DNA of 53,750 nucleotides. Source: Nemertoderma westbladi. Its lineage: Eukaryota > Animalia > Xenacoelomorpha. Positions 3,745 to 44,716 of this stretch are shown one piece after another (position 1 is the first letter of the stretch; each line of letters opens with the position of its first letter). The translations under genes and the position numbers were made by a program. The DNA lies in contig JAUCBJ010002582.1 in assembly GCA_032718475.1 (NCBI GenBank), forward strand, positions 1-53,750, read 5' to 3'. Under the pieces are notes generated by a model that saw nothing but the letters and a program-made list of their open reading frames with translations, did no database searches and had not been told where the DNA came from.

Positions 3745-4353
3745 TCACAATACTGTGCATGTGCAATTCAATTTGATCTTTCGTTTACGTTTAGCGGCCG
3801 ATGCAGCCAGCTGTACCTTTTTATGGTTATGAAGAGCAATCTCCGCAATCCGATGAAACACTTTCTCGACATTAATATTTTCCTTCGCACTAGTCTCATA
3901 GAATTCTATGCCGTTCTGTTCTGCATACGAGTTGGCGTCGTCGAATTCAACAACCCGAGCGTCCGGCCCGCAGTCGCATTTGTTGCCGACCAACAATATG
4001 CCAATGTTGTTGTCACAATTCTGTGCTATTTCGTTAATCCATCTTTTAACGCTAATAAATGTGTGAGCGTTCGTGATGTCATACACGACGATAACACCGT
4101 GCGCACCGCGGTACCAAGTGGATGTTATTATGCGAAAGCACTCCAATCCAGCTGTATCCCAAATCTGCAGTTTTACCTTTTCACCTTCCGGCATTACAAT
4201 TTTTGTGACATTGTAATCAACACCGATTGTTGGCATAGGAGAGACTGTAAAAGTATCATTAACAAAACGTCTGAGAAGATTGCTTTTACCAACAGGAGAA
4301 TCACCAACAATTATCAGTTTAAACATATAATCATAACCCTTATCAGTGGCCAT
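3745..4353 (-). CDS. Rab35: Rab35-like small GTPase, copy A (202 aa, intronless; G3 reads DTAGL; C-terminus KRKRKIKLNCTCTVL)
   Basis: G1 GDSPVGKS, G2 PTIGVDY, G3 WDTAGLE, G4 GNKCD, G5 ETSAK. Rab35-type signatures GEKVKLQIW, YRGAHGVIVVYD, VKRWINEIAQNC and SAKENINVE. It is a divergent paralog, not necessarily the true ortholog. Confidence 0.9.
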   Translation of the reverse strand: MATDKGYDYMFKLIIVGDSPVGKSNLLRRFVNDTFTVSPMPTIGVDYNVTKIVMPEGEKVKLQIWDTAGLECFRIITSTWYRGAHGVIVVYDITNAHTFISVKRWINEIAQNCDNNIGILLVGNKCDCGPDARVVEFDDANSYAEQNGIEFYETSAKENINVEKVFHRIAEIALHNHKKVQLAASAAKRKRKIKLNCTCTVL

Positions 4354-4599: not shown

Positions 4600-4849
4600 G
4601 ATCCCAACCAACGCGGACGCGTGACGGGGATGCGTCAAGCGTTAAGCGTCAAAAGCAATAAGAGGGGAGCGGGATTTTTAAATATTAATTTTTAAACTGA
4701 AATTCAAAATGGATGCTGAGGATTTACTGCTGCTTGCAGTCATTAACCGCAGAAGAAACAGAAAAAACCGTCGTTTCTGGATACATCCCTTGTGGTCTCG
4801 TTTCTGGATACATCCCTTGTGGTCTCGTTTCTGGATACATCCATTGTGA
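4600..4849 (+). mobile_element. 5' fragment of a PIF/Harbinger-type transposase gene
   Basis: ATG at 4709 reads MDAEDLLLLAVINRRRNRKNRRFWIHPLWS. A hydrophobic patch, then an Arg-rich run, then W(V/I)HP is the typical N-terminus of animal Harbinger transposases. The ORF runs into the 27-bp array and stops in the third unit. Confidence 0.6.
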
Positions 4850-6120
4850 TATCGTTTCTGGATACATCCCTTGTGGTCTCGTTTTTGGATACATCCCTTG
4901 TGGTCTCGTTTCTGGATACATCCCTTGTGGTCTCGTTTCTGGATACATCCCTTGTGGTCTCGTTTCTGGATACATCCCTTGTGGTCTCGTTTCTGGATAC
5001 ATCCCTTGTGGTCTCGTTTCTGGATACATCCCTTGTGGTCTCGTTTCTGGATACATCCCTTTTGGTCTCGTTTCTGGATACATCCCTTGTGGTCTCGTTT
5101 CTGGATACATCCCTTGTGGTCTCGTTTCTGGATACATCCATTGTGGTCTCGTTTCTGGATACATCCCTTGTGGTCTCGTTTCTGGATACATCCCTTGTGG
5201 TCTCGTTTCTGGATACATCCCTTGTGGTCTCGTTTCTGGATACATCCCATGTAGTCTCGTTTCTGGATACATCCCTTGTGGTCTCGTTTCTGGATACATC
5301 CCTTGTGGTCTCGTTTCTGGATACATCCCTTGTGGTCTCGTTTCTGGGTACATCCCTTGTGGTCTCGTTTCTGGATACATCCCTTGTGGTCTCGTTTCTG
5401 GATACATCCCTTGTGGTCTCGTTTCTGGATACATCCCTTGTGGTCTCGTTTCTGGATACATCCCTTGTGGTCTCGTTTCTGGATACATCCCATGTAGTCT
5501 CGTTTCTGGATACATCCCTTGTGGTCTCGTTTCTGGATACATCCCTTGTGGTCTCGTTTCTGGATACATCCCTTGTGGTCTCGTTTCTGGATACATCCCA
5601 TGGAGTCTCGTTTCTGGATACATCCCTTGTGGTCTCGTTTCTGGATACATCCCTTGTGGTCTCGTTTCTGGATACATCCCTTGTGGTCTCGTTTCTGGGT
5701 ACATCCCTTGTGGTCTCGTTTCTGGGTACATCCCTTGTGGTCTCGTTTCTGGATACATCCCTTGTGGTCTCGTTTCTGGATACATCCCTTGTGGTCTCGT
5801 TTCTGGATACATCCCTTGTGGTCTCGTTTCTGGATACATCCCTTGTGGTCTCGTTTCTGGATACATCCCATGTAGTCTCGTTTCTGGATACATCCCTTGT
5901 GGTCTCGTTTCTGGATACATCCCTTGTGGTCTCGTTTCTGGATACATCCCATGTAGTCTCGTTTCTGGATACATCCCTTGTGGTCTCGTTTCTGGATACA
6001 TCCCTTGTGGTCTCGTTTCTGGATACATCCCTTGTGGTCTCGTTTCTGGATACATCCCTTGTGGTCTCGTTTCTGGATACATCCCTTGTGGTCTCGTTTC
6101 TGGATACATCCCTTGTGGTC
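4770..6120. repeat. 27-bp tandem minisatellite, ~50 copies, consensus TCGTTTCTGGATACATCCCTTGTGGTC
   Basis: Read directly; very homogeneous, with recurrent variants (CCCATGTAG, CTGGGTACA). It explains the overlapping repetitive ORFs in all six frames. Confidence 0.98.
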
Positions 6121-7429
6121 ATGCAGACCAGCAATGGGAGACTACTTTGTGCAATAGACCAAGCTGCCTATATGGGAACCACCATTACCGTTCCTCCTGG
6201 TATCCATCAAGAACGAAAGTGAACAGGTGGCGACCTACAAATGGCTCAGCAGAACTCTCAACATTTCACTGTCGGAGAACACCGAGTGGACAATATGATC
6301 CTGCTATCACTGCTCCAATCTCGCACTCGCTATTAATTGAATACTATTGCGATGTCTATATTTTATTTCTGTGCCGTAATCCGAATTTTGTATATAAATT
6401 ACCGCTTGGGAATTATTTATTACTGAAAGTGAAATAGTTTTTATTATTAAAAACTTAATACGCAAAATAATATTTTGCGGATTAAGTATTTTGTAGAACC
6501 AAACAATAACTATGTAAATAATGTGATGTATTGTCTTACAATTTAGCAGCTTTAGAAATATTTTCTGTCTACTGATTAGGAGTTTATATAGAGGATAGAG
6601 TCAAGTCAGTGGAATTATCTCTTGTATTTTATCATCATATTAATATCCAAATATAGTCTGCGATAGATAATAAATCAATGAGCTCACATGGGGTAGGATA
6701 ATTACCAGACAATAGTAAAAGAGATAATTATAATATTGTGTCAGTGTCTGCGAACTATTATATTAGCATGCGTTGTTTGGACTGGACGCAAAACCACGCC
6801 TCATTGTTAAATTCTCAATTTAGGGAAAGGAGCAGGTTACAGTGGAACGTTATTTTAACCAAAACAATAAACTAAACACAATAGAACAGGTTACAGTTTC
6901 GTTTTTGCTCGTAAACAGGAAACCGCTGTTATTTGCGTCCAATTTCCCCTGGTGAGTTTAGGGTCTGTGGCAGCCCTAACGCCTCCGATTTTAGTAAAGA
7001 CTCGGGGTTAAATTTGTATTGCGTCCAGTTCCCCCCCCCCCCCCCCCCCCCTATCTGTATTAAGGCAACAATAAAAAGCGCAAATAACTTAAACTTCATG
7101 ATTTGAGAAACCAAGATACTAAAAAACAGCTGACGTTTCGATTTATTTAACAATAATCATTATCAAAGCAAAAACAAATACCTGAAAATTAGTGAAAGAC
7201 AGTGCTAAATACAAAATACAATATCTGTATTGTTTAGAGGGTGTGTGAGGTGCCCGGAGACCAACAAATTCATTTCACGATCTGGCTGAAACCCTGATTT
7301 AAGGTGTAGTCGAGTTTTGGAGCCTTTTTGGCTATCACTCCCTCGGGATTCGCTTAATGCAAGAAGTCACATTGTACCTCATTGCCGTAATCTAATATTT
7401 GTCACGAACCACTATTATTCATACGTCTA

Positions 7430-7960
7430 CATTCTTATGCATTTTGATTGCACCAACGAACCTTTCGGTCGACTTGGACCCTTAGATACGGCTTGTATTC
7501 CCAAGTAGGATGCGCCATCGCTCCATCGGGATTGATGAAGAACCACTGGTTATGACACAGGCCTTTACAATGGAATTATCTGAACTATTAACATGAGAGA
7601 AAATGTAAAATATATTTGAACGTAATACAGATTTAAAGGTATTAACTCTATTAAACACAATTATAGTGTTGGCATCATCCGTTCCAGAATATTTGAAAAG
7701 AAGGTGGAATGATGTATTACATGATACTTTCAGTTTACGTAGATTTTCTACTAACAGCAGTAAATGCTATAACAGAAACATAACGTTTTAAATAATGCCA
7801 GTTTAACTAAGTCTTAACAAAGTCTACATCCTCGCCATTAGAGGCAACCGAGTTGAAAATGTTATTATATTTCGTTTGAAAAATATCAGCAATATCATCG
7901 CAACTGGTTGCCTTACCAACAGTAGTTAGTACGTGGTGTAGTTTTAATACTATTTTGTTT
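7430..7960 (-). mobile_element. Internally deleted copy of the RTE-X-like LINE fragment at 19105-20640
   Basis: Matches 19120-19470 and then jumps to 20497-20640. Confidence 0.7.
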
Positions 7961-8339
7961 TTTTACATATGTAAATAATTAGTCAGTCTTTTACTTAATT
8001 AATTGTACCGCCTCATTTTCACGGGACTGTTTACACTAGTGAATTATATAAATGATCATTTGCTGTCAGGAAATGAACGAATCAGTGAATTAGGGCGCTA
8101 CCGGAAAAAAGAGGCATATAAAAGAGGCATATTCAAGCGTCCTTCACTATGAAGGTGAACTATAGCGCACTTACGTTTGCGTATGTCACTCAGGGGAATT
8201 TATTGCCAAACATCCGACACTGTAATAAAATCTTATGACACTAAAATTGTGGGTAAAACCATTTTCGTTCAAATGCGCTAACACATTGGTTTATCTTTAA
8301 ACCATGGGAAATCACAGGTATTCGCCCCTCACGGTGCTG

Positions 8340-9580
8340 ACCGAAAGCCCAACTCACTCCGACAGTCAATCCCAGTCATTTCAAGCGCTCTAACTCTGTT
8401 AGGGTCTCCCATCGGCCCTCAGCCATACTGCCATGAGGTTGTTTTGCAATGTGTAAGCAAAGTGAGTGATATCATTGCCCGATTACCTGACTTAAAAGAC
8501 TAAAAGATTAAAATACTTCCTGTTATGATAGTGTCTGTCATACCAAAGGTCGTGTTTGCTCTCTCCTCCAAATTACATATGTCTGACTCCTCTGAGTTTG
8601 ACGCCAAACTCAAGGAGGCCTTGTCATATATAGTTGGTGGTAGTAGCTGGCTCAAAGCATCCCGTCCATCTTCAATGGGTGGCCTAGGTCTACGTAAGAC
8701 TGCAGATCACACCCCAACAGCATATGTTGCTTCAGCCCGCCTATCACACAATTTAGTTAACTGAATCCTCAGCCAACGCCCCCTACAGACCCTCACCTTA
8801 TTACAGCCATATAAAAAGTCTTGCCTGTGCAGAGGAGAACCCTGAATGGTCATTATCAGATAGGCTTCCTTCTCCTCTGACGCAACGCGCACTGTCTCAT
8901 GCCATTGACACGGCAAACCATGACCATTTAATATCCATAGCTCCAAACACCCGTTCCATTGCTCTGTGCAACTCCACCTCATTAACTCATGCCGAAGATT
9001 AGCCACACGTCATCCTATCTGCTCTACTTGGCCTTCACATATTGTGGATAGGGAATATCACACTTACCTGGAATGCCTGCAATACTGGCTGGGAATACGT
9101 ATGTCTTCTGAACCATCATCCTGCCCTGTCTGTGGGTTAGCATCGGACAATTTTGGGGACCATAACATCGGTTGTGGTGGACCTGACGACCGCATCAGCC
9201 GTCACGACTCTCTCAGGGATGCAATCTTCTCTGCAGTACAATCAGGCATTGTTGTATCCCGCAGCCGCCCAGCTGATGTATATATTCCCAACTGGCGCAG
9301 ATGTCAAGGTCAACCTATGGCCCTGGATGTTACAGTTATCTCTAGTCTCCAGGCACTCACTATTCAAGGATGAGCCCGCCACCCGGGCCATGCTCTCACA
9401 GTTGCTAGGGAACGCAAGACAGCCGCCCACACAGCAGACTGCCATTCCTCTGGGGAGGGGTTCACCCCACTTGTAGTCAAAGCGATATTCCAGCGCCTGT
9501 CATTCTATCTGTAACGCCGCAATATGGCTCCACCGCTTAACCACAGTCTAACCATTAATAGACGGAGTACAGTAAATGTA
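8340..9580 (+). mobile_element. Degraded 3' portion of a CRE-clade non-LTR retrotransposon (post-RT region, CCHC finger, restriction-like endonuclease)
   Basis: WLKASRPSSMGGLGLR (LPxxxGGLG motif), CPVC...GDHNIGC zinc knuckle, SRHDSLRD, RPADVYIPNW...ALDVTVIS (PD..D RLE). It has frameshifts and stops. Confidence 0.8.
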
Positions 9581-10160
9581 ATGAATGCCCCACGTGTTTA
9601 CATTTGTGTTCAACTCTCGTGCTTTTTTTTTACACAAAATAATAATTTAGGTGCTCCCTATTAATTTTGTATATAATTAATATTATATATATATTATATA
9701 TTTTTATATATTTTTATTTATTTATTATATATTATATATATTATATAATTAATTCTCGCTCTCACCATTATTTTCGCTGTGTAAAGTAAAATTATTTAAC
9801 GTAGTGCTTGTGCCTTCAACTTAATTTGTAAACATAAACATTAACATCGGTGCTTATGTATTCTGATTACGAGTGAATATTTATTTATTATTGAATTATT
9901 AAAAAAATTGAAAAAAGTTTTGAAAAAAATTAATTATAAGCAAATAACTATATTAATTTGTTTGGTGGTATACATTAGAGAAAGTTTAATTTTAAACTCA
10001 AATATTCGCGATATCTCTTTTAAATGACATGATATAGGCCTAATACAACATATAAAATAGAAAAACAAGTTAATTAAAATTAATTTAGAGTTTATTAAAA
10101 TAAACTCAATCTAATTAATATAGTCGAAATATTGTCAGCAATGAATCTATTGGGCATCTA

Positions 10161-10772
10161 TTATGATACTGTGCAGTTCAAATTGCTATTTCGTTTAGGT
10201 TTAGCGGCCGATGCAGCCAGCAGTACCTTTTTATGGTTATTTAGAGCAATCTCTGCAATCCGATGAAACACTTTCTCGACATTAATATTCTCCTTCGCAC
10301 TAGTCTCATAGAATTCTATGCCCTTCTGTTCTGCATACGACTTGGCGTTGTTGAATTCAACAACCCGAGCGTCCGGCCCGCGGTCGCATTTGTTGCCAAC
10401 CAACAATTTGGCCACGTTTTTCCCACAATAATGCGATATTACTTTGAGCCATCTCTTTTCAATGCTACCGAATGTTTCAGCCCTTGTGACGTCATACACA
10501 ACAATAACACCGTGAAAAAAATCAAAGGTCGGAAATAGTAGGCTGAATGGTGGGCGCCCACTTCCATTTAATATATAAACTTTAAGTTCCACTTTTTCAC
10601 AACTCGACATTAAAATTGTTGCGCTCATTAAATCCACAATCCCCCTTGTTGGAGGTAGAGTTTCTATAAAAGTGTTATTATTAAAACGACGGAAAAGACT
10701 GGTTTTGCCAACAAGATTGTTTCCAACAATCATCAGTTTAAGCGAATAATCATAATCCTTCTCAGTGGCCAT
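10161..10772 (-). CDS. Highly divergent Rab35-like GTPase, copy B (203 aa; G3 degenerate, possible pseudo-GTPase; C-terminus KPKRNSNLNCTVS)
   Basis: G1 GNNLVGKTS, G4 GNKCD and G5 ETSAK are retained. WDTAGQ is replaced by YILNGS and switch II is unrecognisable. The C-terminal half is nearly identical to the other copies and the ORF is uninterrupted. Confidence 0.85.
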   Translation of the reverse strand: MATEKDYDYSLKLMIVGNNLVGKTSLFRRFNNNTFIETLPPTRGIVDLMSATILMSSCEKVELKVYILNGSGRPPFSLLFPTFDFFHGVIVVYDVTRAETFGSIEKRWLKVISHYCGKNVAKLLVGNKCDRGPDARVVEFNNAKSYAEQKGIEFYETSAKENINVEKVFHRIAEIALNNHKKVLLAASAAKPKRNSNLNCTVS

Positions 10773-11065
10773 TATGAGATCGATGGTACAATTGGTACAG
10801 GATTATTACAAGTTTACTACCCTAACTACAGTACCACAACAATAATGTATAGATTTAGGGTCTGATACTGAAATAACTAATATTTTAGAGTTTAATACAG
10901 TACTAAAGAGAGAGACTAAAACTACTGTAGACTTGACTTGACATTCCTGAACCATTGAATTACGATTTTAGGATAAATAGGCATACAGTATATAACAAGA
11001 TTGATGTGGTGTTTATAATAAATCATAGTAAATCTTATCTTAAGCTCAGCGAGTGTTGGACAATG

Positions 11066-12080
11066 CTTGTAGACGACTCCTGTTACCTGGGATCATGGAT
11101 CCAGAAGTCAGGTGAGGACCAGGAGAGAGAAATGCATGGGCAGCATTGAATGGGCTTTCCAGGACTTGGAAGTCACTCAGAATTCATTGGAAACTTAAGG
11201 TCCAAATATTTAGAGCAGCAATAGTTCCAGTACCCCTCTATGGGAGTCCATGCTGGGCTCTACTGCTGAGGACCCAAATCTCTGGATTATAACCTTTTGT
11301 TGGGCACAGCTTTTGCAAAGTCGGCAATGAATTCCAGGTGGGATCGAACTGGTGACCTCCGGGTTGGAAGGCTGACGCTCTAACAGTTCAGCTAGCGGCT
11401 CAGGTAAAAGATAGACCTGGAAATACTATCCTTGTTTGTCCTTGTTTGTCCGCAATATACCTTCTCATGGCCATCTGCCAAAATCCATCATATGCTGCCA
11501 CTGTGCTCAACCCTATCGTACTTGGCCGTCTTTAACCACTCGCTACAATGAAAGGGTAGTGTATATTAACCATGAACCATCACGGCCACAATGATTAATT
11601 AAACACTCTAGCTACTAATTTAGATAGGACAGTTACACCCATAGAGAAATGCGACCGATATATTTATAATTTTTATTGGTGTTATGGGTGAATGAGTAGT
11701 TTCATATTATGAATAGATAAATATAAATACATATAATGAATGGTTTCTGGGTGGCATATTCACGTAAAGTTCACGTCTGGTCAAGTACAGTATAATGCGC
11801 ACATCTCCAACAAGACACTATATAACATTGGCGGTGTCTCATTGGTTCCCCCAAGATTGACACTAGAACAAAGCCGCTTCTGCTTTGAAAGAGCCGTTAG
11901 AGCCGTGAAAGAAGCCGTTAGGACCACCCTGTGCACAATCTCCCTGTGCAGCCCCATGGATAAAATAAGCATAGTGGACAGCCTATGGCTTTCATGAGAA
12001 GCCCCCTAAAGGACACTGGCTTTGGAGATGCGGATAATCTCGTGAATATCATGGGGGATAGGGAGATGTGGCGGTGCAAT
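11066..12080 (+). mobile_element. Degraded 3' fragment of the same RTE family as 22276-24927, split by a ~460-bp insertion (11288-11745)
   Basis: DDSCYLGSWIQKSGED and YNAHISNKTLYNIGGVSLVPP match the RTE ORF. The RTE sequence breaks at TCTGGAT (11281-11287) and resumes at TCTGGGT (11746-11752). Confidence 0.85.
11331..11400 (-). other. tRNA-derived (SINE-like) module with Pol III A and B boxes; not a functional tRNA call
   Basis: Minus strand reads GCCGCTAGCTGAACTGTTAGAGCGTCAGCCTTCCAACCCGGAGGTCACCAGTTCGATCCCACC. The acceptor stem does not pair. A related sequence lies at 52005-52075. Confidence 0.6.
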
Positions 12081-15023: not shown

Positions 15024-16945
15024 AAGAGATAAGTATAAGATTGTGTGGGTGTATTCTAGAGTCCCGCTCACCAACAGAGAGTGCCATCGGATCCGATCTG
15101 AACCGATCGGATCCAACAGCTTCAAACACTTTGCACAACAAACTCCAACAGTCCGATAACTTCCAACAGATTCAGACAGCTTCAAACAATTTCAGATAGC
15201 TTCAAACAGAATCAGACAACTTCCAACAACCTGTCAATCACTCCGAATTAATGGCGAATTAATATCCCGCCTCAATTTTAAATTCTCAATCTAGGGAAAG
15301 GAGCAGGTTATAGTGAAACGTTATTTCAACCAAAACAATAAACTAAACACAATAGAACAGGTTACAGTTTCGTTTTTGGTCGTAAACAGCTGTTATTAGC
15401 GTCCAATTTCCCCTGGTGAGTTATTAATTTTTATTGCGTCCAGTTTCCCCCCCTATCTGCATTGTTTAGAGGGTGTGTGAGGTGCCCGGAGACCAACGAA
15501 TTCCTTTCACGATCTGGCTGAAACCCTGATTTAAGGTGTAGTCGAGTTTTGGAGCCTTTTTGGCTATCACTCCCTCGGTATTCGCTTAATACAAGAAGTC
15601 ACATTGAACCTCATTGTCGTAATCTAATATTTGTCAAGAACTACTATTATTCATACTACTGTTGACAGATCACAGAGTAGGCCTAATATTCAGTCCACTG
15701 TCAATAAACTGATTACTATTGGTTGGTCTAGACAGATAAATTAACTGGTGCTACTGTAGTATAATAATCTGATGATCGGATTTTTAGGCCTTATTCTCAA
15801 CTCAAAAAGCATTCAAACGGTAAACAAGCTAAGGCATCTCTTTAATTAAGAGAAAACAAGGGGATTCCACCGTGAACTTATGAAACCGTAACAAAATAAG
15901 TTATATAAAATTGTTATACAGTATACAGTATGTTAAATAAACAAAATAAGTTACAATGGCCTACGGGAAACTTTACTACAGGAAAGATTCTTTAGAAAAC
16001 TCTGAAAAAAACATCACCTGACAAGAGGTGATAATTAACTCTAGAATTCACCAATCTCGATACAGATTAATTATTGAGCTGGGAATCGACCAATCAGAAG
16101 GTTTTTACCGGTCAAAAAGGTATACAAGGTGCCGACAGAGAAAGTAGTTTCAGTTAAATTACTTTCGGCCCTTGCGACTGCCCGTAATTCTTCCATCGAT
16201 ATTTTCGGCAGTACCAAAGTCGAAGTGTGTTCTCAGCGCTAAAAGTTTCCAAGTAAAGCGAGAAAGGCTAAATTTCCAGTATTTTACGGTCGTTTATCAG
16301 AACCTAATTTTTTATGGCCTTCAACATTTAGATAAATTACCGGTACGGTATTATTATTCTCGGGGCTAGTTTATATTATTTCAAAGTTCTCACTATTTTT
16401 GTGAACGATTCTAAAAGGTAGGTCTGTAACTTCACTGCGACCTCAGAACCTTTTACCCGGTTTCTATAATATCTTTTCTCATTCCTGGAAGTAAATGAAA
16501 GTACAGTAGTTATTTATTTCATATACTTCATATATTAATTGAATGCCACCCCAAATTAGATGATTTCACAATAAAAAAATTATTTAGCACCAAATATATT
16601 TATTTGTAGCACCAATTTACATCCCCCAATTTTGAATATCTCACCAATAACAATTATTAATTCCCCAAAAACAATAATTCATCCCCCATAAACAATTATT
16701 AATCCCCCAAAAACAATTATTCTTTCCCCCAAATCAATTATTCATACCCCATTCAATAATTATTTATTTCCATAAATCAAACAAAATGTTTAATCATATT
16801 ATACAGACAATCCTCATACCAATAGTCTGCAACTGAGAAGCGCCACCTAACGTCGCTATAGGCGCCCTAGTTTAAATGTCTCCTCATGTGTTATGGTGGT
16901 GCTATTGGGCCGTTTCAGACTATTGTATAAGCTTAAACACGTGAC

Positions 16946-17767
16946 CAGGGACGGATTAAGGGGGGGGCAACAGGGGCAGCTGCCGGGGGCCCGTAAGTTG
17001 GAAGGGGCCCGCAAGTTGGGAGAAATTTACCGATCATTATCTCACTGATAAAGCAACCTCATTTATTTATTAATTTCTGGCTGTTCAATAAATATTTAGA
17101 GTATATCTCACATATAGCCTCACCATTCAGAACACTGTGTCCCATAGAAGTGTTTTAAAAAAATATTTTAAGTGTAATGTAATGCTTAAAGGAAAACGTT
17201 AGAAAAAACAAAATTAACCAAAAAAAAAAGCTATTTAAAATAATAGTAAACTATTACTGTATTACAATTAACATTTAATTTACCTTTCAATTAATATTAT
17301 CTGAAATCATTCACGAGTGCAGTAGGTTAGGAAATTGCTATTTTTAAGTAATTTTGTGTCTAATTTATTGATATACCGACAGCGTCAATATATTATTCGT
17401 TCCTAAATATAGAATTGATGTCTTTTGGATGGTGAAATTTTAGGAAAAAATTATTATTATTTAAATAATAAAGGACTATTATTCGATAAAAAAAAAGTAA
17501 GCTAAAAAGAAATCACCGCTTTTTTAACTGATATTATATATTCAATTTAGCGAAATTCAACTATTCTCTCTAAAGTGTTTTCCGTTACGTTTTTATATCG
17601 AATATATTGTTTTATTTGAAAAAAATATCACCAGCGTTACTTATTTGTACCAACGGGGACCAACATTTTTTGCAATTGGTTTTCGTCGGGGGGGGGGGGG
17701 GGGGGGGGGGGGTAGGTGCCCGTAAGTTGCGACTGCCGGGGGCCCGAAAATCCATAATCCGTCCCTG
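16946..17767. mobile_element. hAT-type MITE, 822 bp
   Basis: TIRs CAGGGACGGATTA / TAATCCGTCCCTG; 8-bp TSD CACGTGAC / CCCGTGAC (1 mismatch); subterminal GGGGCCCG repeats. Confidence 0.9.
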
Positions 17768-18666
17768 CCCGTGACTAAACCCGCACCTCATTGTAATTAT
17801 TACAATTTTGTACAATGATTGTTATTAAGCGCCCGGTTAATTTTATTGACTGGAAATTATTACAATATTTACTATTCAATATACTATTCTTTATCTATTA
17901 TTCAATTTATTATTTATAAATATTAATATTGTTCAATCAAATACATTCAAATATTATTTGATATAATTAATTATAATTAATAATTATAATTAATATAATT
18001 AAGTGTTAATTATTATTATTTGCTGAAGCTTAGTATCAATAAAATATCGCATATAAGACGAAAGGAGAGACACTTTATTGACACCCAACCCAGGTAGGTC
18101 TCTATAATTGAACATTATTGAGAATCTGGGCAATCTTGTTAGACCTGTGAGTGCCGGCTTACACCCTAATCCATTAAATAATTACAGTATGGCGATATTA
18201 TTTGCAATCAGTAATACGATTGAAGCTTTCAATATCGATAATATCATGATTGAACATGAACATTATTGTCCTGGCGCCACTATATTGATTTATTGTATAG
18301 CAATATATGGCCGGATCTACTGTAACTGGATCTAAGGTCCCTCATACTACAGCTGTCACTGTACTGCTGTACCGCGTACCGGTACTGTTGTTTGGGGTAT
18401 ATTATTATTCCCGCATTCTGTCTGTGTTGTGTATTAGTCTTATTGCAGTATTACGGTTGGCTGAAAGGTTACATTATTACAGTATTATAGCATTCGCATT
18501 CTTTTATTATAAACTGTCGTAGATTGAATATTATATAGTAAAAATACATTTCCCCTACAAAAAGCACATTTCCAAACTAAGCCCATATGTTTTATTTATT
18601 TGGGTTATCGGGCCGAGACCCATTGTACATACTGATATATCATACAGTATACTGTACACATTAGTA

Positions 18667-19008
18667 ACACGTTCGTAGGGTCTTCGCGCAGCACGAAGTG
18701 AGCAAAGCCTTTAGCATATGGGTACCATTAACGAGTTGTCTGCCGTTAGTCAGAAGTCTTCAACACAATACTCGTCATCCTCTTGTGCCTCGTTGCGTTC
18801 GTTCGTTTTTGACGAAACTTCAGATTCTTTCTAAACTTTTGAAGGACTACATACATACCAAGTTTCGTTTAATTTCATCAAGGAATAACCGAGTTATTAG
18901 CGATCAAATATTTACGACTGACAACGGCAGACGACGACGACGACGACAGACAACTCGCCAATGGCACCCATATGCTAAGGCTTCGCTCACTTCGTGGCTC
19001 GCCCCACA
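18667..19008. mobile_element. Helentron/HINE-like element, copy 2 (opposite orientation to copy 1)
   Basis: Same termini (ACACGTTCGT(A/G)GGG..CTTCGCGCAGCACG ... CGTGGCTCGCCCCACA), its own ~37-bp inverted repeats (18692-18729/18960-18996) and a (GAC)n tract. Confidence 0.65.
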
Positions 19009-19104
19009 TTACACAATAGCAAAAAATCTACTGTATTACCTACTGTATAATTAGGTCATTGGTGGTTCGTAAATATATAAACCAAAACAAATAATGATAA
19101 CCAA

Positions 19105-20640
19105 ACATTCTTCAACGTATTTTGATTGCACCAACGAACCTTTCGGCCAACTTGGACCCTTAGATACGGCTTGTAATCCCAAGTAGGATGCGCCATCGCT
19201 CCATCGGGATTGATATGGATTGGGAGAAATATTAACACGAGAGAAAATGGAAAACATATTTGAACGTAATACAGATTTAAAGGTATTAACTCTATTAAGC
19301 ACAATTATAGTGTTGGCATCATCCGTTCCAGAATATTTGAAAAGAAGGTGGAATGATGTATTACATGCTACTTTCAGTTTACGTAGATTTTCTACTCGAA
19401 ATATGGACCATACAGTAGTGAACAGCAGTAAATGCTATAACAGAACGTTTTAAATAATGCCGTTTTAACTAAATTAGAGCAAACTGAGAAATTACGGGCT
19501 AATTGGTTACCACGACAATATAAATTACTACGCATACGCATAATATCAGGTTCATCGGATAAGTCACAGCTTATAATGCGGCCTATATAATTAACCTGTT
19601 TACACAGGCAATCAATCAATTTACCATTTAAGAAAACGTCACCAACAAGTCCAAATTTGTAAGGTAAGAAGTAAACACAGTGAGATTTGGTAGGATTGAA
19701 AGTAATATCGAATTGTAAACCATATTGATCACAAATCTTCAATAATACCACGTAAGCCAAAGATGCTAGGGGACAATAAGCAAAGGTCGTCCGTGTAAAG
19801 TATATGATTCAACAACAATGTTCCTATTCGGCATCCTGCGTTTATGGTATTTTCGAACACTTAACTCGCTCACATAAATGTTGAAAGGAAATGGACTAAG
19901 AACACTTCCTTGACGGACACCATTAGACACAGTTTAATACTTTGAGACTGAAGATCCCTTATACCTAAAATTATCCCTAAAATACGCACAATACTGATAG
20001 GAACAGTAATATTTATTAATTTTCGAAAAAGTTTAAAATGGTTCACTCGATCGAATGCTTTAGATGCATCTAGGAAAGCGGAATATATACATTAGAGTCC
20101 TTCCTAATGTATAAATGCACTGCCTGATTCAGAGTAAAAATACACATCTCGGTACCAAGACTTTTACTAAAGCCAAATTGGTTTTCCGCAATTTGAGCGT
20201 TATTGATTTGAATTAATTACACAGCACTTAAAAATCTTTGAACAAATATTGGTTTTCGTGATTGGTCTATAATTGGTGTCATCATTCAAGCCAATATTTT
20301 ATCTTTCACAATAGGAGAAATACACGATGAAATAAGCGCTCACCAGCAAGGATGCTCACCAGCAAGGATGTAGCTTTCAGAGAATATATTGTCCAGACCT
20401 GACGCCTTGTCACGTTCTAAGTCCTCAATACCTGATCTCACATCGGAGCATGAAATGTGAATATTTGACGAACCGCCGCAGTTGTTAAAAACATCATTAA
20501 CAAAGTCTACATCCTCGCCATTAGAGGCAACCGAGTTGAAAATGTAATTATATTTCGTTTGAAAAAGATCAACAATATCATCAGAACTGGTTGCCTTACC
20601 AACAGTAGTTAGTACGTGGTGTAGTTTTAATACTATTTTG
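19105..20640 (-). mobile_element. Degraded non-LTR retrotransposon RT fragment (RTE-X-like)
   Basis: Minus-strand motifs FLDASKAFDRVNHFKLFRKL, SNGVRQGSVLSP, LNHILYTDDLCLLSP, FNPTKSHC and LYCRGNQLARNFSVCSNLVKTALFKTFC; frameshifted. Confidence 0.8.
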
Positions 20641-22275
20641 TTTTTTTACATATGTAAATAATTAGTCAGTCTTTTACTTAATTAATTGTACCGCCTCATT
20701 TTCGGGGACTGTTTACACTAGTGAATTAGTGAATGGGGGGGCGGGGGGGGGGGGGGGGGGGCGAATCGGACCCTTCCTAGTTTTTAGTTGCTGTAACTAG
20801 CAACCACATTACGTACCGGCCCAATTTTTATTGAGAATTAGCCAAATTTAATGCCGCATCTTTTGCAAAAAACCACGTTGCAATTGGATTTCTACTTTTC
20901 GATGTGGGTGCCACCTCAAAATTTGGTCTCCAGCTCCAAATTTTTTGAAATTTTCTAATTTTACAAAGTCATTCGTGATTTAGTAATTATTTATGTTTGG
21001 GCTATTTTTATTGGTTTGGATCACTCTAATGCTCTATACAAGTATGTAAGTGTAGTGGTACGTCATTTTTGGAGCACCAAAATTAGGGCGTGGCACTTTA
21101 AAATTTCAAAATTACTTTATTCGGAAAATTTACTAAAGTTTGGATTTCGAAGCAGTTTTATTGGTTTTCTGGAGCGCTGAATAAATTGAAAGTAATATAG
21201 AAGCCTGAAGACTTAGTGGTTCGCCATTTTTGGTGCACCAAAATTAGGGCGTGGCACTTCAAATTTTGAAAAATACGATACGGAAAATACACTAAAGTTT
21301 TGATTTGCAATGCATTTTTATAGGAACGAATCAGTGAATTAGGGCGCTACCGGAAATAAGTGGATATAAAACAGGCATATTCAAGCGTCCTTCATTATGA
21401 AGGTGAAATATAGCGCACTTACGTTTGCGTATGTCACTCAGGGGAAGTTATTGCCAAACATCTGACACTGTAATAAAATCTTATGACACTAAAATTGTGG
21501 GTAAAACCATTTTCGTTCAAATGCGCTAACACATTGGTTTATCTTGAAATCATGGGAAAACACAGGTATTCACCCCCCACGGTCCTGACCAAGATCCCAA
21601 CGCATTCCCACAGTCAATCCCAGTCTCATTTCAAGCGCTATAACTCTGTTAGGGTCTCCCGTCGGCCCTCAGCCATACTGCAATGAGGTTGTTTTGCAAT
21701 GTGTAAGCAAAATGAGTGATATCATTGCCCGATCACCTGACTTAAAAGATTAAAATACTTCATGTTATGATCGTGTCTGTCCTAACCAAAGGTCGTGTTT
21801 GCTCTCTCCTCCAAATTACATCATGTCTGACTCCTCTTTGAGGCCAAACTCAAGGAGGCCTTGTCAGATATAGTTGGTGGTAGTAGCTGGCTCAAAGCAT
21901 CCCTTCCATCTTCAATGGGTGGCCTAGGTCTACGTAAGACTGCAGATCACACCCCAACAGCATATGTTGCTTAAGCCCGCCTATCACACAATTTAGTTAA
22001 CTGAATCCTCAGCCAACGCCCCCTACAGACCCTCACCTTATTACAGTTGGGTTAGTTGGGTTAGCATCGGACAATTTTGGGGACCATAACACCGGGTGTG
22101 GTGGGCCTGACGACCGCATCAGCCGTCACGACTCTCTCAGACATGCAATCTTCTCTGCAGTACAATCAGGCATTGTTGTTGTATTCCGCAGCCGCCCAGC
22201 TGATGTATATATTCCTACCTGGTGCAGATGTCAACCCATGGCCCTGGATGTTACAGTTATCTCTAGTCTCCAGGC

Positions 22276-24927
22276 TAGTACTAGGATCGGCATGCTGCAT
22301 TTTTAAGAATGCTGTGCCGGCTTATCAACAAAATTGCACCGCCACAACTCCCTATCACCCATGACATTTGCTAGATCATCCGGATCTTCAAGGCCAGTGT
22401 CCTTTAAGATGCGTCTCAAGAAAGTCATGGGCTGTCCACCATGCTTATTCACTTCATGAGGCTGCCAAAGTACAAGATTATGCACTGGCTGGTCCTCAAG
22501 GCGAAAGCAATGTCCTGCAAGGCGGAGGCGATTTTGTTCTAGTGTCAAGCTTGGGGGAACCAATGAGACACCTCCAATGTTATATAGTGTCTCGTTGGAG
22601 ATGTGTGCATTGTACTTGACACAATGAACCCGGCGTAGCATTCTTGTGAATGTGCCATCCAGAGATTTGGTGTCCTCAGCAGTTAGAGCCCAGCATGGAC
22701 TCCCATAGAGGAGTACTGGAACTACTGCTGGCCTAAATAATCGGACCTTAAGTTTCCTATTAATTCTCGGTGACTTCCAAATCCTGGAAAGCCTATTCAA
22801 GGCTGCCCATGCCTTTCCCTTACGTATTCGATGGTCCTCACCTGACTTCCGGATCCATGATCCCAGGTAACAGAAGTCATCCACATGCTCAAGAATACCA
22901 TCTTTTGAGCTTATGCTCATCCGATCAGAGACTTGCTGAGGACTTTCAAAGTTAACTGTCAAAATTTTTGTCTTTCTGGAGTTAATAAAAAGACCAACTC
23001 TAGAAGCAGCATGTTCTAATGAGCTGAGAAGCCATTGGGATCCCTCTAGTGATTCTGAGAGTACTCCTAAGTCATCAGCAAAGTCTAGATCAGTTAGGTA
23101 CTTGGCAGGATTTCCTCGACTTCTGGAGCCAGTAGGTGGAGTTATCATCACCCCATCATCATTATGATGATCTAAGGACATGCGTAGAACATAGTCAACA
23201 ACAATTATGAACAAGAATGGTGCAAGTGTGTCTCCCTGGAGGACGCCCCATAACACTTCAAATGGTTCTGTGTCACCGTCAACAGTAGACACAAATGTTG
23301 TCGAACCATCGTATACTAATCTGATTGCTGCAACAATTTCATCAGGAATCCCATATAATGAAAGTATGCTGAACATACGTGAGCGAGAGACTGAATCAAA
23401 GGCCTTGAAGAAGTCAACAAAGATAACAGCCAGATGCCTGTCTTTCTTTTGATAACTCTTCAATTATCCTTCTAAGTGCCAAAATGGGCTCCACGGTCCC
23501 ACGACCTTTACGGAACCCATTCTGATTTCCACGGAGCAGTCTCTCAATGGGATCCCTGATGCGATTTAATAGAATTCTATTGTATAGCTTTGCAGCAATC
23601 GAGATCAATGAGATTCCCCGAAAAGAACCATAGAGTGTTAGGTTGCCCTTCTTGGGAACTGGCGCCAACTTATCTGTTTTCATTTCTTGTGGGACTCTTG
23701 TTGTTCGGTACATGTCTACTATGATGGGATAGATGAGCTTTAAACACTAAGGTATTTTAAAGACCTCAGGGGGAACACCATCTATTCCACTGGCACGATT
23801 GGTCTTAATGCTCTTTGCAGCAGCCTTCACTTTTGCAAAGGAGATATCACCAATGGGAATATCTGGGAGTACAGACTCAGACACTTTTACTTCTATAAAG
23901 TTATCAGGCAATACCCTGTCATTATTGAGGAGCTTTTCAAAGTGGGCCTTCCAACCATTGAGGCGATCGGCTGGTGATTCAAGCCTTAACCTTGGTTGTT
24001 GTTTGGCTTTTTCGACCAGCAAGCAAGTTGATCGATCTCCATGCCTGGGATGATTGCCTGCTGTCGTCAGCATCATTGATGGCATCAACCTGTTGGTTTA
24101 TTAGCTCCTGTAATTTAACAGAGTACTGCCTGTTCAGGGACCTAGATGCAGCCTTAACTGCATTCTTGGCCGCTGTTGTCTGTTTGAGTCGGGACACTTT
24201 CTGCGCCTTGTAGAGGTAATTTCGGCACTTCTGAATTTTGTTGTCAGTCCAGGGGGCCCGTTTCCTGTTTCGAGGGTATACAGGAACTGTTTCTGCAGCT
24301 GCTAACTTAACTGCCTCTGTGAAGGCAGGATAGCCCTCACAGTGATCTGCCGCCTCAGAGACAAGAACCTCATACCTGTTGCTCAGCTGTAGTGTGAAGC
24401 TGGATTTCACACTTGGCTGTTGCAACAGAGAGGACCAGTCATGCCGCGGCAAGGCAGATTTCGTTGTTCTGCTAGCACGCAGACTAAGTCTTAAGTTATA
24501 GTTCATATCCGTACCGATGGTATTTTCGTATTGCAAAAATAAGACTATAAGTATGAAATACCCTATGTTATTGAGATAATGTTTATTGTTATGGTTAGAA
24601 AAGCCCACCACTGTAACCTCCTCCTTTCCGTTAATTAAGTAATGGAGATTAGTTTATTGTTTTGGTTAGAAAACACCACCACTGTAACACCATCGGTACG
24701 CATATGAACGATAACCAAGTCTTACCTTGGCCACAATAAGGCGGTGATCACTGGAGAAGGGTCGTAGTGTAAATGCATTACAGTCTTGTATACAGCTCCT
24801 GTATTTCCTACGAAACAGGATATGGTCTATCTGGGACTTGTGACCACTGGGTCCACTATGAGTCCATAGCTTTCCAGTTCGCTTCTTGAACTGGGTTCCA
24901 GCTGAAAACAATCCATTTCCAGAGATC
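22276..24927 (-). mobile_element. 5'-truncated RTE-clade LINE (C-terminal part of the AP endonuclease plus reverse transcriptase), frameshifted, with a 22-bp TSD
   Basis: APE end IDHIL...SDHRLIVAKV; RT motifs FRGISLISIAAKLYN, NQNGFRKGRG, FVDFFKAFDSV, GVLQGDTLAPFLF, DLDFADD. TSD CAGTTATCTCTAGTCTCCAGGC at 22254-22275 and 24928-24949. Confidence 0.95.
24494..24716. mobile_element. 223-bp MITE inserted in the RTE, with an 8-bp TSD
   Basis: ~28-bp TIRs (AGTTATAGTTCATATCCGTACCGATGGT / ACCATCGGTACGCATATGAACGATAACC); TSD AAGTCTTA at 24486-24493 and 24717-24724. Removing it restores the RTE reading SDHRLIVAKVRLSLRASR. Confidence 0.9.
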
Positions 24928-25687
24928 CAGTTATCTCTAGTCTCCAGGCACTCACTATTCAAGGATCAGCCCGCCACCCGGGCCATGCTCTCACAGTTGC
25001 TAGGGAACGCATGACAGCCATCCACACAGCAGACTGCCATTCCTCTGGGATGGGCTTCACGCTACTTGTAGTCAAAGCGATATTCCAGCGCCTGTCAGTC
25101 TGTCTGTAACGCCGCAATATGGCTCCGCCGCTTAACCACAGTCTAACCATTCATAGACGGAGTACAGTAAATGTAATGCCCCACTTGTGTTTACATTTGT
25201 GTTCAACTCTCGAGCTTTTTTTTTTTTTTTACACAAAATAATAATTTAGGTGCTCCCTATTAATTTTGTATCAGATTCATTCTCGCTCTGTCTATTATTT
25301 TCGCTTTGTAAAGTAAAATTATTTAACGTAGTGCTTGTGCCTTCAACGTTAATTTGTATATATATAAATCAAAATCAGTGCTTATGTATTCTGATTACGA
25401 GTGAATATTTATTTATTATTGAATTATTTTAAAAAAATTGAAAAAAGTTTTGAATTAAATATAAGCAAATAACTATTTTAATTTGTTTGGTGGTATACAT
25501 TAGAGAAAGTTCAATTTTAAACTCAAATATTCGCGATATCTCTTTTAAATGACATGATATAGGCCTAATACAACATATAAAATATAAAAACAAGTTAATT
25601 AAAATTAATTTATTAATTTAAATTAATTTATTACTATCTAATTAATATAGTCTACATATTGTCAGCAATGAATCTATTGGGCATCTA

Positions 25688-26299
25688 TTATGATACTGTG
25701 CAGTTCATATTGCTATTTCGTTTAGGTTTAATGGCCGATGCAGCCAGCAGTACCCTTTTATGGTTATGAAGAGCAATCTCTGCAATCCGATGAAACACTT
25801 TCTCGACATTAATATTCTCCTTCGCACTAGTCTCATATAATTCTATGCCGTTCTGTTCTGCATACGAGTTGGCGTCGTCGAATTCAACAACCCGAGCGTC
25901 CGGCCCACAGTCACATTTGTTGCCAACCAACAATTTGGCGACGTTTTCCTCACAAATCTGCACTATTTCGTTAATTCTTCTTTTGACGGTAATAAATGAT
26001 TCTGCACTTGTGATGTCGTACACGACGATAACACCGTGCGTGCCGCGGTACCATGTGGTTGTTATTCCGCGAAAGCGCTCATTACGCTCCTGTCCAGACG
26101 GAACCCAAATGTGCAGTTTTACCTTTTCACCTTCCGGCAATATAATTTTTATGATATTGAAATCAATACCGAGTGTTGGCATAGGAGAGACTGTAAAATT
26201 ATCATTAACAATACGTCTGAGAAGATTGCTTTTGCCAACAGCAGAATCACCAACAATCATCAATTTAAACAAATAATCATAATCTTTCTCAGTGGCCAT
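25688..26299 (-). CDS. Rab35: Rab35-like GTPase, copy C (203 aa; G3 WVPSGQ with a 3-aa ERN duplication; C-terminus KPKRNSNMNCTVS)
   Basis: G1 GDSAVGKS, PTLGIDF, YRGTHGVIVVYDITSAESF (close to Rab35), GNKCD, ETSAK; intact ORF. Confidence 0.9.
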   Translation of the reverse strand: MATEKDYDYLFKLMIVGDSAVGKSNLLRRIVNDNFTVSPMPTLGIDFNIIKIILPEGEKVKLHIWVPSGQERNERFRGITTTWYRGTHGVIVVYDITSAESFITVKRRINEIVQICEENVAKLLVGNKCDCGPDARVVEFDDANSYAEQNGIELYETSAKENINVEKVFHRIAEIALHNHKRVLLAASAIKPKRNSNMNCTVS

Positions 26300-27580: not shown

Positions 27581-28186
27581 TCACAATACTGTGCACTTCA
27601 ATTTGCTCTTTCGTTTACGTTTAACGGCCGATGCAGCCAGCATTACCCTTTTATGGTTATGAAGAGCAATCTCTGCAATCCGATGAAAGACTTTCTCAAC
27701 ATTAATATTCTCCTTCGCACTAGTCTCATATAATTCTATGCCGTTCTGTTCTGCATACGAGTTGGCGTCGTCGAATTCAACAACCCGAGTGTCTGGCCCG
27801 CAGTCGCATTTGTTGCCGACCAACAATTTGGCGACGTTTCCCTCACAATTCTGCACTATTTCGTTAATTCTTCTTTTAACGGTAATAAATGTTTCAGCTC
27901 TTGTGATGTCATACACAACGATAACACCCTGTGCGCCGCGGTACCATGTGGTTGTTATTCCGCGAAAGCGCTCCTGTCCAGCCGTATCCCAAATCTGCAG
28001 TTTTACCTTTTCACTACTTGGCATTATAATTTTTTTGGTTTTGAAATCAACACCGATTGTTATCATATAAGGTGAGACTGTAAAAGTATCATTAAAAAAA
28101 CGACTGAGAAGACTGCTTTTACCAACATCAGAATCACCAACAACCATCAGTTTAAATAAATAATCATAATCCTTCTCAGTGGCCAT
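27581..28186 (-). CDS. Rab35: Rab35-like GTPase, copy D (201 aa; canonical G motifs; C-terminus KRKRKSKLKCTVL)
   Basis: GDSDVGKSSLL, TIGVDFK, KVKLQIWDTAGQERFR, YRGAQGVIVVYD, GNKCD, ETSAKENINVE; the most canonical copy. Confidence 0.92.
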   Translation of the reverse strand: MATEKDYDYLFKLMVVGDSDVGKSSLLSRFFNDTFTVSPYMITIGVDFKTKKIIMPSSEKVKLQIWDTAGQERFRGITTTWYRGAQGVIVVYDITRAETFITVKRRINEIVQNCEGNVAKLLVGNKCDCGPDTRVVEFDDANSYAEQNGIELYETSAKENINVEKVFHRIAEIALHNHKRVMLAASAVKRKRKSKLKCTVL

Positions 28187-28311
28187 TACGAGATCGATGG
28201 TACAGGATAATTATAAGTTTACTATCCTACTGTAACTCCCACAACATAACAATAATGTAATTATCTACACCATAACAAACCATCGGGATGCAAGCAAAAA
28301 ATCGAGCAATA

Positions 28312-28358
28312 CCAGCGCAGATCGTTTCGGCCGGCATCAGGCCTCGTCAGACACACTG
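28312..28358 (-). ncRNA. Minimal type I hammerhead ribozyme core (probably degenerate)
   Basis: Minus strand: CAGTGTGT-CTGACGA-GGCC-TGATGCC-GGCC-GAAAC-GATC-TGCGCTG, i.e. CUGANGA, a 4-bp stem II and GAAA. Stems I and III are imperfect. A decayed mirror copy lies at ~30350-30390 (+). Confidence 0.55.
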
Positions 28359-29799: not shown

Positions 29800-30284
29800 G
29801 GAAGGATTAAATTTGTACTCAATAATTGTGCGGTTTAATTACGTTTAGATCAATTAAAGACACATTTATTAAAGCAAATCACTTAAACTAATTAAAAACT
29901 ATAATAGAATGGCGTATGGGGATTATATCTGTATAATTTTTAAGTATAATTATTTAAATCTTATACTGTAAAACAATTAATTTCCTTTAAAAGGCAGGTT
30001 GAAAATGGCGTTTTCACCGCAATCAACTTAATTAACTAATTAACTGCTATTATCTTAGCTTCTCGAAGGCCACACGGAAATTCTACTTGGAAAATTTCTA
30101 AACTTTTGCCAAACAACATGTGTACCAAGTTTGGATAGATTTCATCAAAGATTGGCCGAGTTATTAACGTTTAAAATTGAACACGACAGAACGACAGAAC
30201 GACAGAACGACAGAACGACAGAACGACAGGTTGATTAATGGTACCACTACGCTAAGGCTCACTCACTTCGTGGCTCGCCCCACA
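29800..30284. mobile_element. Partial Helentron/HINE-like element, copy 3, containing an (ACGACAGA)n tract at 30182-30228
   Basis: Ends GCTAAGGCTCACTCACTTCGTGGCTCGCCCCACA like 18975-19008, with internal similarity to 18855-18930. The family's other terminus is seen at 28715-28743. The left boundary is approximate. Confidence 0.55.
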
Positions 30285-44715: not shown

Positions 44716-44716
44716 T

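What the first reader, a model, noticed from the sequence alone, without database searches (positions are those of the whole stretch)
10430..10700. Rab B switch region has diverged far more than the dead transposon DNA duplicated with it
SEEN: Rab B and Rab C sit in paralogous duplication units. Their non-coding flanks and decayed TE fragments align almost base for base (e.g. 9755-10160 vs 25279-25687; 8200-8800 vs 21445-22045), as does the 3' half of the CDS. In contrast, the codons from switch I to switch II (10515-10670 vs 26040-26200) are barely alignable, yet no stop or frameshift has arisen. INFERENCE: the flanking junk DNA acts as a neutral clock, so the excess coding divergence implies strong positive selection or patch replacement from a divergent donor by gene conversion.
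Basis: partly seen in the sequence, partly recalled or inferred. Interest (0 to 1): 0.75.

Follow-up and report, generated by a model that had tools for sequence, protein, structure and literature searches.

The report
Chimeric Rab35-like gene in tandem array
One of four tandem Rab35-like genes has a front half that differs from its neighbours as much at silent sites as at amino-acid sites, most likely because it is an old copy whose back half and downstream DNA were recently overwritten from a neighbour, so the matching junk DNA likely dates that exchange rather than revealing a burst of selection.

Summary
The contrast is real, but the clock is not. The window holds four intronless Rab35-like genes (A, B, C, D; minus strand). 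B matches C at about 95% from codon ~118 through 3.4 kb of downstream DNA (117 of 2573 sites differ), but only 59% over codons 18-120. Silent sites in B's 5' half are as diverged as replacement sites (branch dS 0.45, dN 0.37); a flank-like dS is rejected (p below 1e-5). Positive selection is not shown (p 0.15). Contigs from two studies bridge the junction unchanged, and no second B-like copy (donor) was seen. Best reading: B is an old paralog whose 3' half and downstream DNA were replaced from a C-type unit by one recent exchange. What remains notable: B kept an open frame through about 0.45 changes per site while losing G3 (DxxGQ) and most RabF motifs, so it is a likely hydrolysis-deficient pseudo-Rab. 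A new case of a known process; the scan had no related earlier finding.

The parts
10161..10772 (-). Rab B, intronless Rab35-like ORF, 203 aa, chimeric; single-cysteine CXXX tail shared with Rab C
   Evidence: Pfam Ras 2.4e-33; best PDB sequence hit Rab35; Rab fold
10420..10722 (-). Old diverged core of B, codons 18 to ~118: P-loop, switch I, interswitch, switch II, helix 3; 59-64% identical to C, A and D; dS about equal to dN
10515..10575 (-). Remodelled G3 / switch II: DxxGQ lost (no Asp, no catalytic Gln), RabF3 and RabF4 lost; alignment ambiguous
   Evidence: model pLDDT 58 for residues 71-80
10407..10428 (.). Junction between the old 5' part and the C-like 3' part (change-point interval); bridged by single contigs in two studies
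   Evidence: (X1 contig 10293-11060, 1 other letter; X2 contig 10353-10924, 0 other letters)
6797..10406 (.). Young block: 3' half of B plus downstream DNA with decayed retroelement fragments, about 4.5% diverged from the C unit
10323..10382 (-). Five B-only charge-raising replacements (residues 131, 141, 142, 144, 150, around helix 4) inside the young block
   Evidence: 5 of 6 B-only replacements raise charge; post hoc P about 0.001
10722..10920 (.). Intermediate-age patch: codons 1-17 and 148 bp upstream, 11% from C; second change point at 10722
   Evidence: 0 of 1000 permutations reach the gain
10920..11068 (.). Distal upstream DNA of B, barely alignable but colinear with that of C
25688..26299 (-). 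Rab C, 203 aa; G3 Asp lost, 3-codon in-frame duplication in switch II; source type of B's 3' block
15268..25687 (.). Downstream region of C that matches B's young block in eight pieces, separated by insertions or deletions
27581..28186 (-). Rab D, 201 aa, the most canonical copy (G3 intact); control paralog
3745..4353 (-). Rab A, 202 aa; catalytic Gln of G3 replaced by Leu; control paralog

Best explanation
Rab B has a 5' half as diverged at silent as at replacement sites and a 3' side nearly identical to the Rab C unit, most likely because it is an old paralog whose 3' half and downstream DNA were replaced in one recent unequal exchange from a C-type unit, with the junction inside the gene near codon 118. 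Shown: the step in divergence at 10407-10428, uniform 4.5% divergence downstream, high dS only in B's 5' half, the older 5' flank, the open frame, and the loss of G3 and RabF2-4. Inferred: the direction (old B overwritten by C-type DNA); a single event (unequal crossover with later loss, or one long conversion tract); an earlier, smaller exchange that reset codons 1-17 and 148 bp upstream; and that exchanges resolved at the conserved motifs on either side of the core because only there was the sequence similar enough. Before the exchange B's 5' half evolved as a translated gene with little constraint on the canonical Rab switch surface (omega about 0.85). The protein is predicted to fold as a Rab, to still bind guanine nucleotide (G1, G2 Thr, G4, G5 kept), to hydrolyse GTP poorly, and not to engage normal Rab35 regulators or effectors.
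For: Silent differences at same-amino-acid codons, columns 18-120 vs 123-208: B-C 14 of 37 vs 3 of 74 (p 9e-6), B-A 14 of 40 vs 5 of 69, B-D 12 of 41 vs 6 of 68; the controls C-D, A-C and A-D show no such contrast (p 0.58, 0.78, 0.39). ML B branch: 5' dS 0.45, dN 0.37; 3' dS 0.03, dN 0.05; dS of 0.15 or less rejected for the 5' half; robust without switch II, with the MAFFT alignment and with site-varying dN. In the core, C is the least similar paralog to B (59%, against 63-64% for A and D), while the tail and downstream DNA pair B with C. Eight downstream blocks share one divergence (p 0.82), as one copying event predicts. Distal 5' flank: B-C barely alignable, C-D clear. B keeps two residues of outgroup Rab35 that A, C and D share in changed form (residue 33 and the Leu after the helix-3 Trp, read by eye). 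Frame kept: the flank rate of 16 frameshifting indels per 117 substitutions predicts 15-22 in B's 5' half, and none is seen; P(no stop) 0.015-0.04. Junction present in independent contigs.
Against: Topology tests on four sequences are weak: B+C is not rejected in the 5' half (AU p 0.06-0.09), nor A+B in the 3' half (p 0.22). dS is not significantly heterogeneous among six 5' segments (p 0.22), so the second, older exchange rests on total-site change points and on the upstream flank. B-C (16 of 128) is not significantly closer than C-D (25 of 129) in the proximal patch (p 0.17). The distal 5' flank gives no numeric clock, and B-D colinearity there is not significant (P 0.14). A simple crossover should leave a full old B copy, which is not in the window, so a later loss or a very long tract must be assumed. 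No whole genome is held, so the donor search is incomplete. B's amino-acid changes are no more conservative than neutral simulations (P 0.12-0.64), and B could have died after the exchange (P no frameshift 0.15, no stop 0.57).
Confidence: 0.62

Rival explanations
1. Selection-guarded island: B and its neighbours exchange sequence repeatedly, and selection for B's distinct switch surface removes any tract that overwrites codons 18-118, leaving a peak of divergence at silent and replacement sites alike.
For: Younger patches bound the core on both sides (change points 10722 and 10420), and the spared part is the effector-binding face. The frame is kept over about 0.45 changes per site. The mixture fit gives 30% of sites at omega 4 (not significant). 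5 of 6 new B-only replacements in the young block raise charge. The model is described for opsins in PMC3924837 (passages).
Against: Uniform 4.5% divergence across eight blocks separated by kilobase indels fits one event better than ongoing conversion. Divergence itself blocks exchange, so no selection is needed. Site tests are not significant (p 0.15, 0.86).
Confidence: 0.2
2. Patch import: B is a young duplicate of C whose 5' part was replaced by conversion from a divergent donor paralog elsewhere in the genome.
For: It explains high dS equally well; the proximal 5' flank is C-like (16 of 128). A fifth, unplaced paralog appears as loose ends in all 4 runs.
Against: No second contig lies on 10504-10695 at 80% likeness or more in X1, X2 or X3, and no other letters are listed there. 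The fifth paralog's loose ends at the core boundary are not B-like. No donor in the window. Best protein relatives are 47% (whole B, best 120 of 1529 listed) and 45% (residues 1-122, best 150 of 4747 listed). B's distal upstream DNA is also old. Limits: identical copies collapse in contigs, the tool filters records, and a donor may have been lost.
Confidence: 0.13
3. Burst of positive selection since a recent duplication: B and C split at the age of the flanks and only replacement sites raced ahead.
For: High dN, a long B branch in the protein tree (1.94 against 0.14-0.17 for A, C, D) and an intact frame.
Against: A B-branch dS of 0.025-0.06 is rejected; silent differences at unchanged codons are about nine times those of the 3' half; C is not B's closest relative in the core.
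Confidence: 0.03
4. Assembly chimera joining two different loci at 10420.
For: Near-identical tandem paralogs are prone to mis-assembly.
Against: Single contigs bridge the junction in X1 (10293-11060, 1 other letter; X1 may be the source sample) and in X2, another study (10353-10924, 0 other letters); X3 likewise (10383-10774). B carries private changes on both sides of the junction.
Confidence: 0.02

Closest known systems
Rab35 (Rab1-derived, Rab group I; PMC3425129, passages)
   Same: Best sequence hits for B and D are Rab35 (47% and 60-64%); Rab fold, TM about 0.9 to Rab1a and Rab35 structures; G1, G2 Thr, G4 and G5 kept.
   Different: Four intronless tandem copies on a long common stem with omega near 0.6-1; single-cysteine CXXX tail, where most listed Rab35 end in two cysteines; B lacks DxxGQ and RabF2-4. 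The tree leaves the clade beside, not inside, the sampled Rab35 group.
Mosaic paralogs made by interlocus exchange (opsin peak of divergence, PMC3924837 passages; copepod GOT1p1/p2, PMC3728101 abstract)
   Same: An island of high divergence, silent sites included, inside otherwise homogenised duplicates.
   Different: Here the 3' side looks like one long, dated event rather than continual conversion, and selection on the island is not shown.
Drosophila X-linked cluster of six rab loci at 9C-F, including RabX2 and RabX3 (PMC3402473, passage; Hutter 2007 seen only as a reference title)
   Same: Lineage-specific cluster of recently duplicated rab loci, with function of some members in doubt (no expression found for RabX2 and RabX3).
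   Different: Different organism and, from recall only, a different parent Rab; the passage seen reports no chimeric member.
PseudoRab EhRabX10 of Entamoeba histolytica (PMC8514894, passages; in-silico study)
   Same: Rab fold with non-canonical G motifs.
   Different: EhRabX10 lacks G2 and has altered G3-G5; B keeps G2, G4 and G5 and loses only G3. Unrelated origin.

Membership tests
Ras-superfamily small GTPase (canonical, catalytically active) | G domain fold | tested here: met
   Pfam Ras 115.5 bits (cut-off 21.6); model pLDDT 86.8 (built on a Rab alignment, so it leans to this fold); Foldseek top hits Rab1a and Rab35
Ras-superfamily small GTPase (canonical, catalytically active) | G1 GxxxxGK[S/T], G2 Thr, G4 NKxD, G5 SAK (definitions from PMC6767298 passage) | tested here: met
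   G17, G22, K23, T42, N127, K128, S158, A159, K160 invariant across 50 aligned sequences including B
Ras-superfamily small GTPase (canonical, catalytically active) | G3 DxxGQ with catalytic Gln | tested here: not met
   B has neither the Asp nor the Gln in either alignment tried
Ras-superfamily small GTPase (canonical, catalytically active) | GTP binding and hydrolysis | not testable with these tools
   needs purified protein
Rab family | At least one RabF motif (Rabifier rule and motifs, PMC3192815 passages) | tested here: met
   RabF5 4 of 6 and RabF1 3 of 5 by eye; the MAST scan itself was not run
Rab family | RabF1-4 surface for REP and GDI (PMC3504004 passage) | tested here: not met
   B: RabF2 1 of 5, RabF3 1 of 3, RabF4 0 of 5; 9 of 24 specified positions in all, against 22 of 24 for D (by eye)
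Rab family | C-terminal prenylation cysteine | tested here: met
   single Cys in a CXXX context, a form listed for some Rabs in PMC3504004; prenylation itself untested
Rab35 subfamily | Best hit Rab35 at over 40% identity | tested here: met
   47% for B, 60-64% for D
Rab35 subfamily | Placement inside the Rab35 clade | tested here: inconclusive
   A-D form one clade (97/97) on a long stem beside the 34 sampled Rab35-like rows; long-branch warning
Selection-guarded divergence peak under gene conversion | Local peak of silent and replacement divergence between homogenised flanks | tested here: met
Selection-guarded divergence peak under gene conversion | Ongoing frequent conversion and selection against it at the peak | tested here: inconclusive
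   uniform downstream divergence suggests one event; omega above 1 not shown; no population haplotypes

The most novel reading that the evidence does not exclude
The array is a diversifying family of decoy or escape Rabs. B is an expressed, hydrolysis-deficient pseudo-Rab whose whole switch face has been rebuilt under recurrent selection and shielded from homogenisation, and which is now gaining a basic helix-4 patch beside a polybasic CXXX tail, so that it reaches membranes without REP/GDI and evades or traps proteins (for example microbial effectors) that recognise Rab1/Rab35 switches.
Probability: 0.12. Interest if true: 0.65.

Novelty: new member of a known kind. Interest (0 to 1): 0.3.

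Why it matters
As a method lesson: in tandem arrays, near-identical flanking junk can date the last exchange and not the gene, so a dN excess over flanks is no test of selection without dS. As biology: Rab35 is normally very conserved, and this lineage has at least four fast-evolving copies, three with altered G3 (A lacks the Gln, C the Asp, B both). B's open frame over about 0.45 changes per site shows long retention as a coding gene despite loss of the canonical switch surface. If B is expressed and under diversifying selection, it would be a natural experiment in rewiring a Rab effector surface; that is not shown.

Tried and rejected
No whole genome is held, so a genome-wide donor search was not possible. 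No RNA holder was listed, so expression is untested. Run X4 (third study, small share) has no contig on B's core and shows only non-B letters at B-diagnostic sites. Its depths and short upstream ends look RNA-like to me, but it is listed as DNA (guessed) and a gap in contigs proves nothing, so I use it neither way. Contig depths were not used as copy number. The downstream flank below 10120 was not checked against runs, so linkage of B to the far downstream blocks rests on the window assembly. A compensated double frameshift in switch II was looked for by eye and not seen. The distal 5' flank was tried as a numeric clock and dropped: its mismatch fraction equals that of shuffled controls (0.39). 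Sliding and structural-segment tests of omega above 1 on the B branch: 0 of 11 bins and 0 of 10 segments significant. Conservativeness of B's replacements against stop-filtered neutral simulation: no difference in 6 of 6 settings; B's changes hit conserved and variable columns alike (p 0.25). No complex prediction was run: no open binding claim depends on it. Earlier findings of the scan: 0 in this genome or nearby, 0 by words, 1 unrelated viral Rab note by sequence. PMC5391186 (passages) held nothing on this point. Literature searches listed no report of a chimeric Rab35 tandem array; the library lacks most subscription papers and no supplements were read.

Full report
Layout. The window encodes four intronless small GTPases on the minus strand: A 3745-4353, B 10161-10772, C 25688-26299, D 27581-28186 (Pfam Ras for all four). 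Best sequence relatives are Rab35: 47% for B among the best 120 of 1529 hits, 60-64% for D among the best 120 of 3149, and Rab35 tops the PDB sequence search. No close relative of the family is in the protein collections. In a 50-sequence tree the four form one clade (97/97) on a long stem beside the sampled Rab35 group, with a long-branch warning, so I call them Rab35-like. No whole genome is held.

The observation. B and C do sit in partly duplicated units. Eight blocks between 6797 and 10160 match 15268-25687 with 117 differences in 2573 sites, at one rate (homogeneity p 0.82). The 3' CDS differs at 16 of 258 sites, columns 18-120 at 120 of 294. A change-point scan over 9756-10920 puts the main step at 10420 (interval 10407-10428; 30% to 5.6% differences; gain 62.2 against at most 11.4 in 1000 permutations) and a second at 10722 (11% to 41%; 0 of 1000 permutations). 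The diverged block is therefore codons 18 to about 118, wider than reported; only switch II is hard to align. The junction is not an assembly error: single contigs bridge it in X1 (1 other letter in 10293-11060), X3 (same sample as X1) and X2, another study (0 other letters in 10353-10924) (4 of 4 runs laid; X4 has no contig on the core).

The clock. Further out (10920-11068) B is barely alignable to C or D, with a mismatch fraction equal to shuffled controls though colinear with C above chance (P 0.0005; B-D P 0.14), while C and D align well. D's upstream DNA had to be read across an inserted element. So the flanks do not date the whole gene.

dS and dN. NG86 for B-C: columns 1-126 dS 0.62, dN 0.45; columns 127-208 dS 0.06, dN 0.06; B is about equally far from A and D in the 5' half, while A, C and D are 0.15-0.21 apart. 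My own codon ML on four sequences gives B-branch dS 0.45 and dN 0.37 in the 5' half (0.37 and 0.27 without switch II) and 0.03 and 0.05 in the 3' half; omega = 1 is not rejected and dS of 0.15 or less is. Allowing a class of sites with high dN does not rescue a low dS: dS 0.025, 0.06 and 0.12 are rejected in all 9 settings (p at most 0.001). Model-free, silent differences at unchanged codons are 14 of 37 in the core against 3 of 74 in the 3' half for B-C, with no such contrast in the three pairs without B. A burst of selection since the 4.5% event is thus refuted. Positive selection over the longer history is not shown: mixture test p 0.15, and 0.86 without switch II; 0 of 11 bins and 0 of 10 segments have omega significantly different from 1. 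Power with four sequences is low.

Direction. In the core, C is B's least similar paralog (59%, against 63-64% for A and D), while the tail and downstream DNA are C-type; the topology tests lean the same way but are not decisive (AU p 0.06-0.09 for B+C in the 5' half). No donor with a B-like core was found in the window, in the contigs of X1-X3 at 80% likeness or more (collapse and filtering limit this), or among proteins (best 45% identity in 150 listed of 4747). A fifth paralog shows as loose ends in all four runs but is not B-like at the core boundary. With the old distal flank and the single downstream rate, the simplest history is an old B whose 3' half and 3.4 kb downstream were copied from a C-type unit once, by unequal crossover with later loss or by one long tract, probably after an earlier small exchange at the 5' end. 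This is inference. The selection-guarded island model (PMC3924837, passages; PMC3728101, abstract) gives the same peak and cannot be excluded; divergence alone also blocks exchange.

Is B a gene? Flanks show 16 frameshifting indels per 117 substitutions, which predicts 15-22 in B's 5' half at 0.3-0.45 changes per site; none is present, its indels are all in frame, and P(no stop) is 0.015-0.04. So the frame was kept by selection for most of that history. Yet the replacements are no more conservative than neutral ones and hit conserved Rab positions freely: 39 of 72 columns conserved in the 46 outgroup rows are changed in the 5' half, against 17-23 in A, C and D, and 0 of 17 in the 3' half. Since the recent exchange B has 6 private replacements in the 3' half, too many for omega 0.2 (P 0.0003) and compatible with neutrality (P 0.27); death after the exchange cannot be excluded. 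Five of the six raise net charge, four of them in or beside helix 4 (post hoc P about 0.001), a hint of directional change that needs independent data. Expression is untested (no RNA holder listed).

The protein. The model (pLDDT 86.8, alignment-guided; switch II block 58) is a Rab fold with TM about 0.9 to Rab1a and Rab35. G1, the G2 Thr, G4 and G5 are kept; G3 DxxGQ, whose Gln serves hydrolysis (PMC6767298, passage), is lost. B matches 9 of 24 specified RabF positions (motifs from PMC3192815, passages) against 22 of 24 for D, by eye; RabF1-4 contact REP and GDI (PMC3504004, passages). B is therefore predicted to bind nucleotide, hydrolyse poorly and engage normal Rab35 partners badly. It works like a pseudo-Rab but was not tested biochemically.

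Comparison and verdict. Mosaic paralogs, lineage-specific rab clusters (Drosophila 9C-F, PMC3402473, passage) and pseudo-Rabs (PMC8514894, passages) are all known. Searches (listings only, apart from the papers named) showed no report of such a Rab35 array, within a library that lacks most subscription papers. Observation partly confirmed; interpretation partly supported (recombination yes, flank clock and selection burst no). New member of a known kind; interest 0.3.

Noticed in passing
window 22275-24928: Decayed reverse-transcriptase retroelement (Pfam RVT_1 on 22303-23376) inserted in C's downstream unit after the B/C exchange, flanked by a roughly 22-bp direct repeat that is single in B's unit (9333-9354).
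   Followed up: partly
window 28267-30490: About 2.2-kb element with imperfect terminal inverted repeats (28274-28378 vs 30428-30315, 84%) and a 13-bp direct repeat, splitting the upstream DNA of Rab D.
   Followed up: partly
window 33300-33580: Relic of a further Rab unit: the last codons of a Rab gene plus downstream flank, without the rest of the gene.
   Followed up: partly
window 3745-4353 and 25688-26299: Rab A has Leu in place of the catalytic Gln of G3; Rab C lacks the G3 Asp and has a 9-bp in-frame duplication in switch II. A and D end in CXXL, B and C in CXXS, which could direct different prenylation (recalled rule).
   Followed up: partly
loose ends at 10257, 10723, 10760: A fifth, more distant Rab35-like paralog, not in the window, appears in all four runs and is colinear with B apart from 6-nt length differences; possibly the parent gene.
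   Followed up: no
window 37652-39775: Intronless 707-aa protein with long coiled-coil repeats and a C-terminal fibrinogen-C domain (Pfam 6.4e-44).
   Followed up: no
window 4771-6120, 34862-35487, 44708-50980: Tandem repeat arrays; the first (27-bp-based) is open in several frames on both strands.
   Followed up: no
window 8075-9672: The shared decayed fragments include a short ORF (9101-9373) with a zinc-knuckle and endonuclease-like pattern typical of RLE-type non-LTR retroelements (recalled, not tested).
   Followed up: no
run X2: C-type contigs are at depth about 4 while A- and B-type contigs are at 11-28, and the B contig ends at 10924 without a loose end; unexplained.
   Followed up: no
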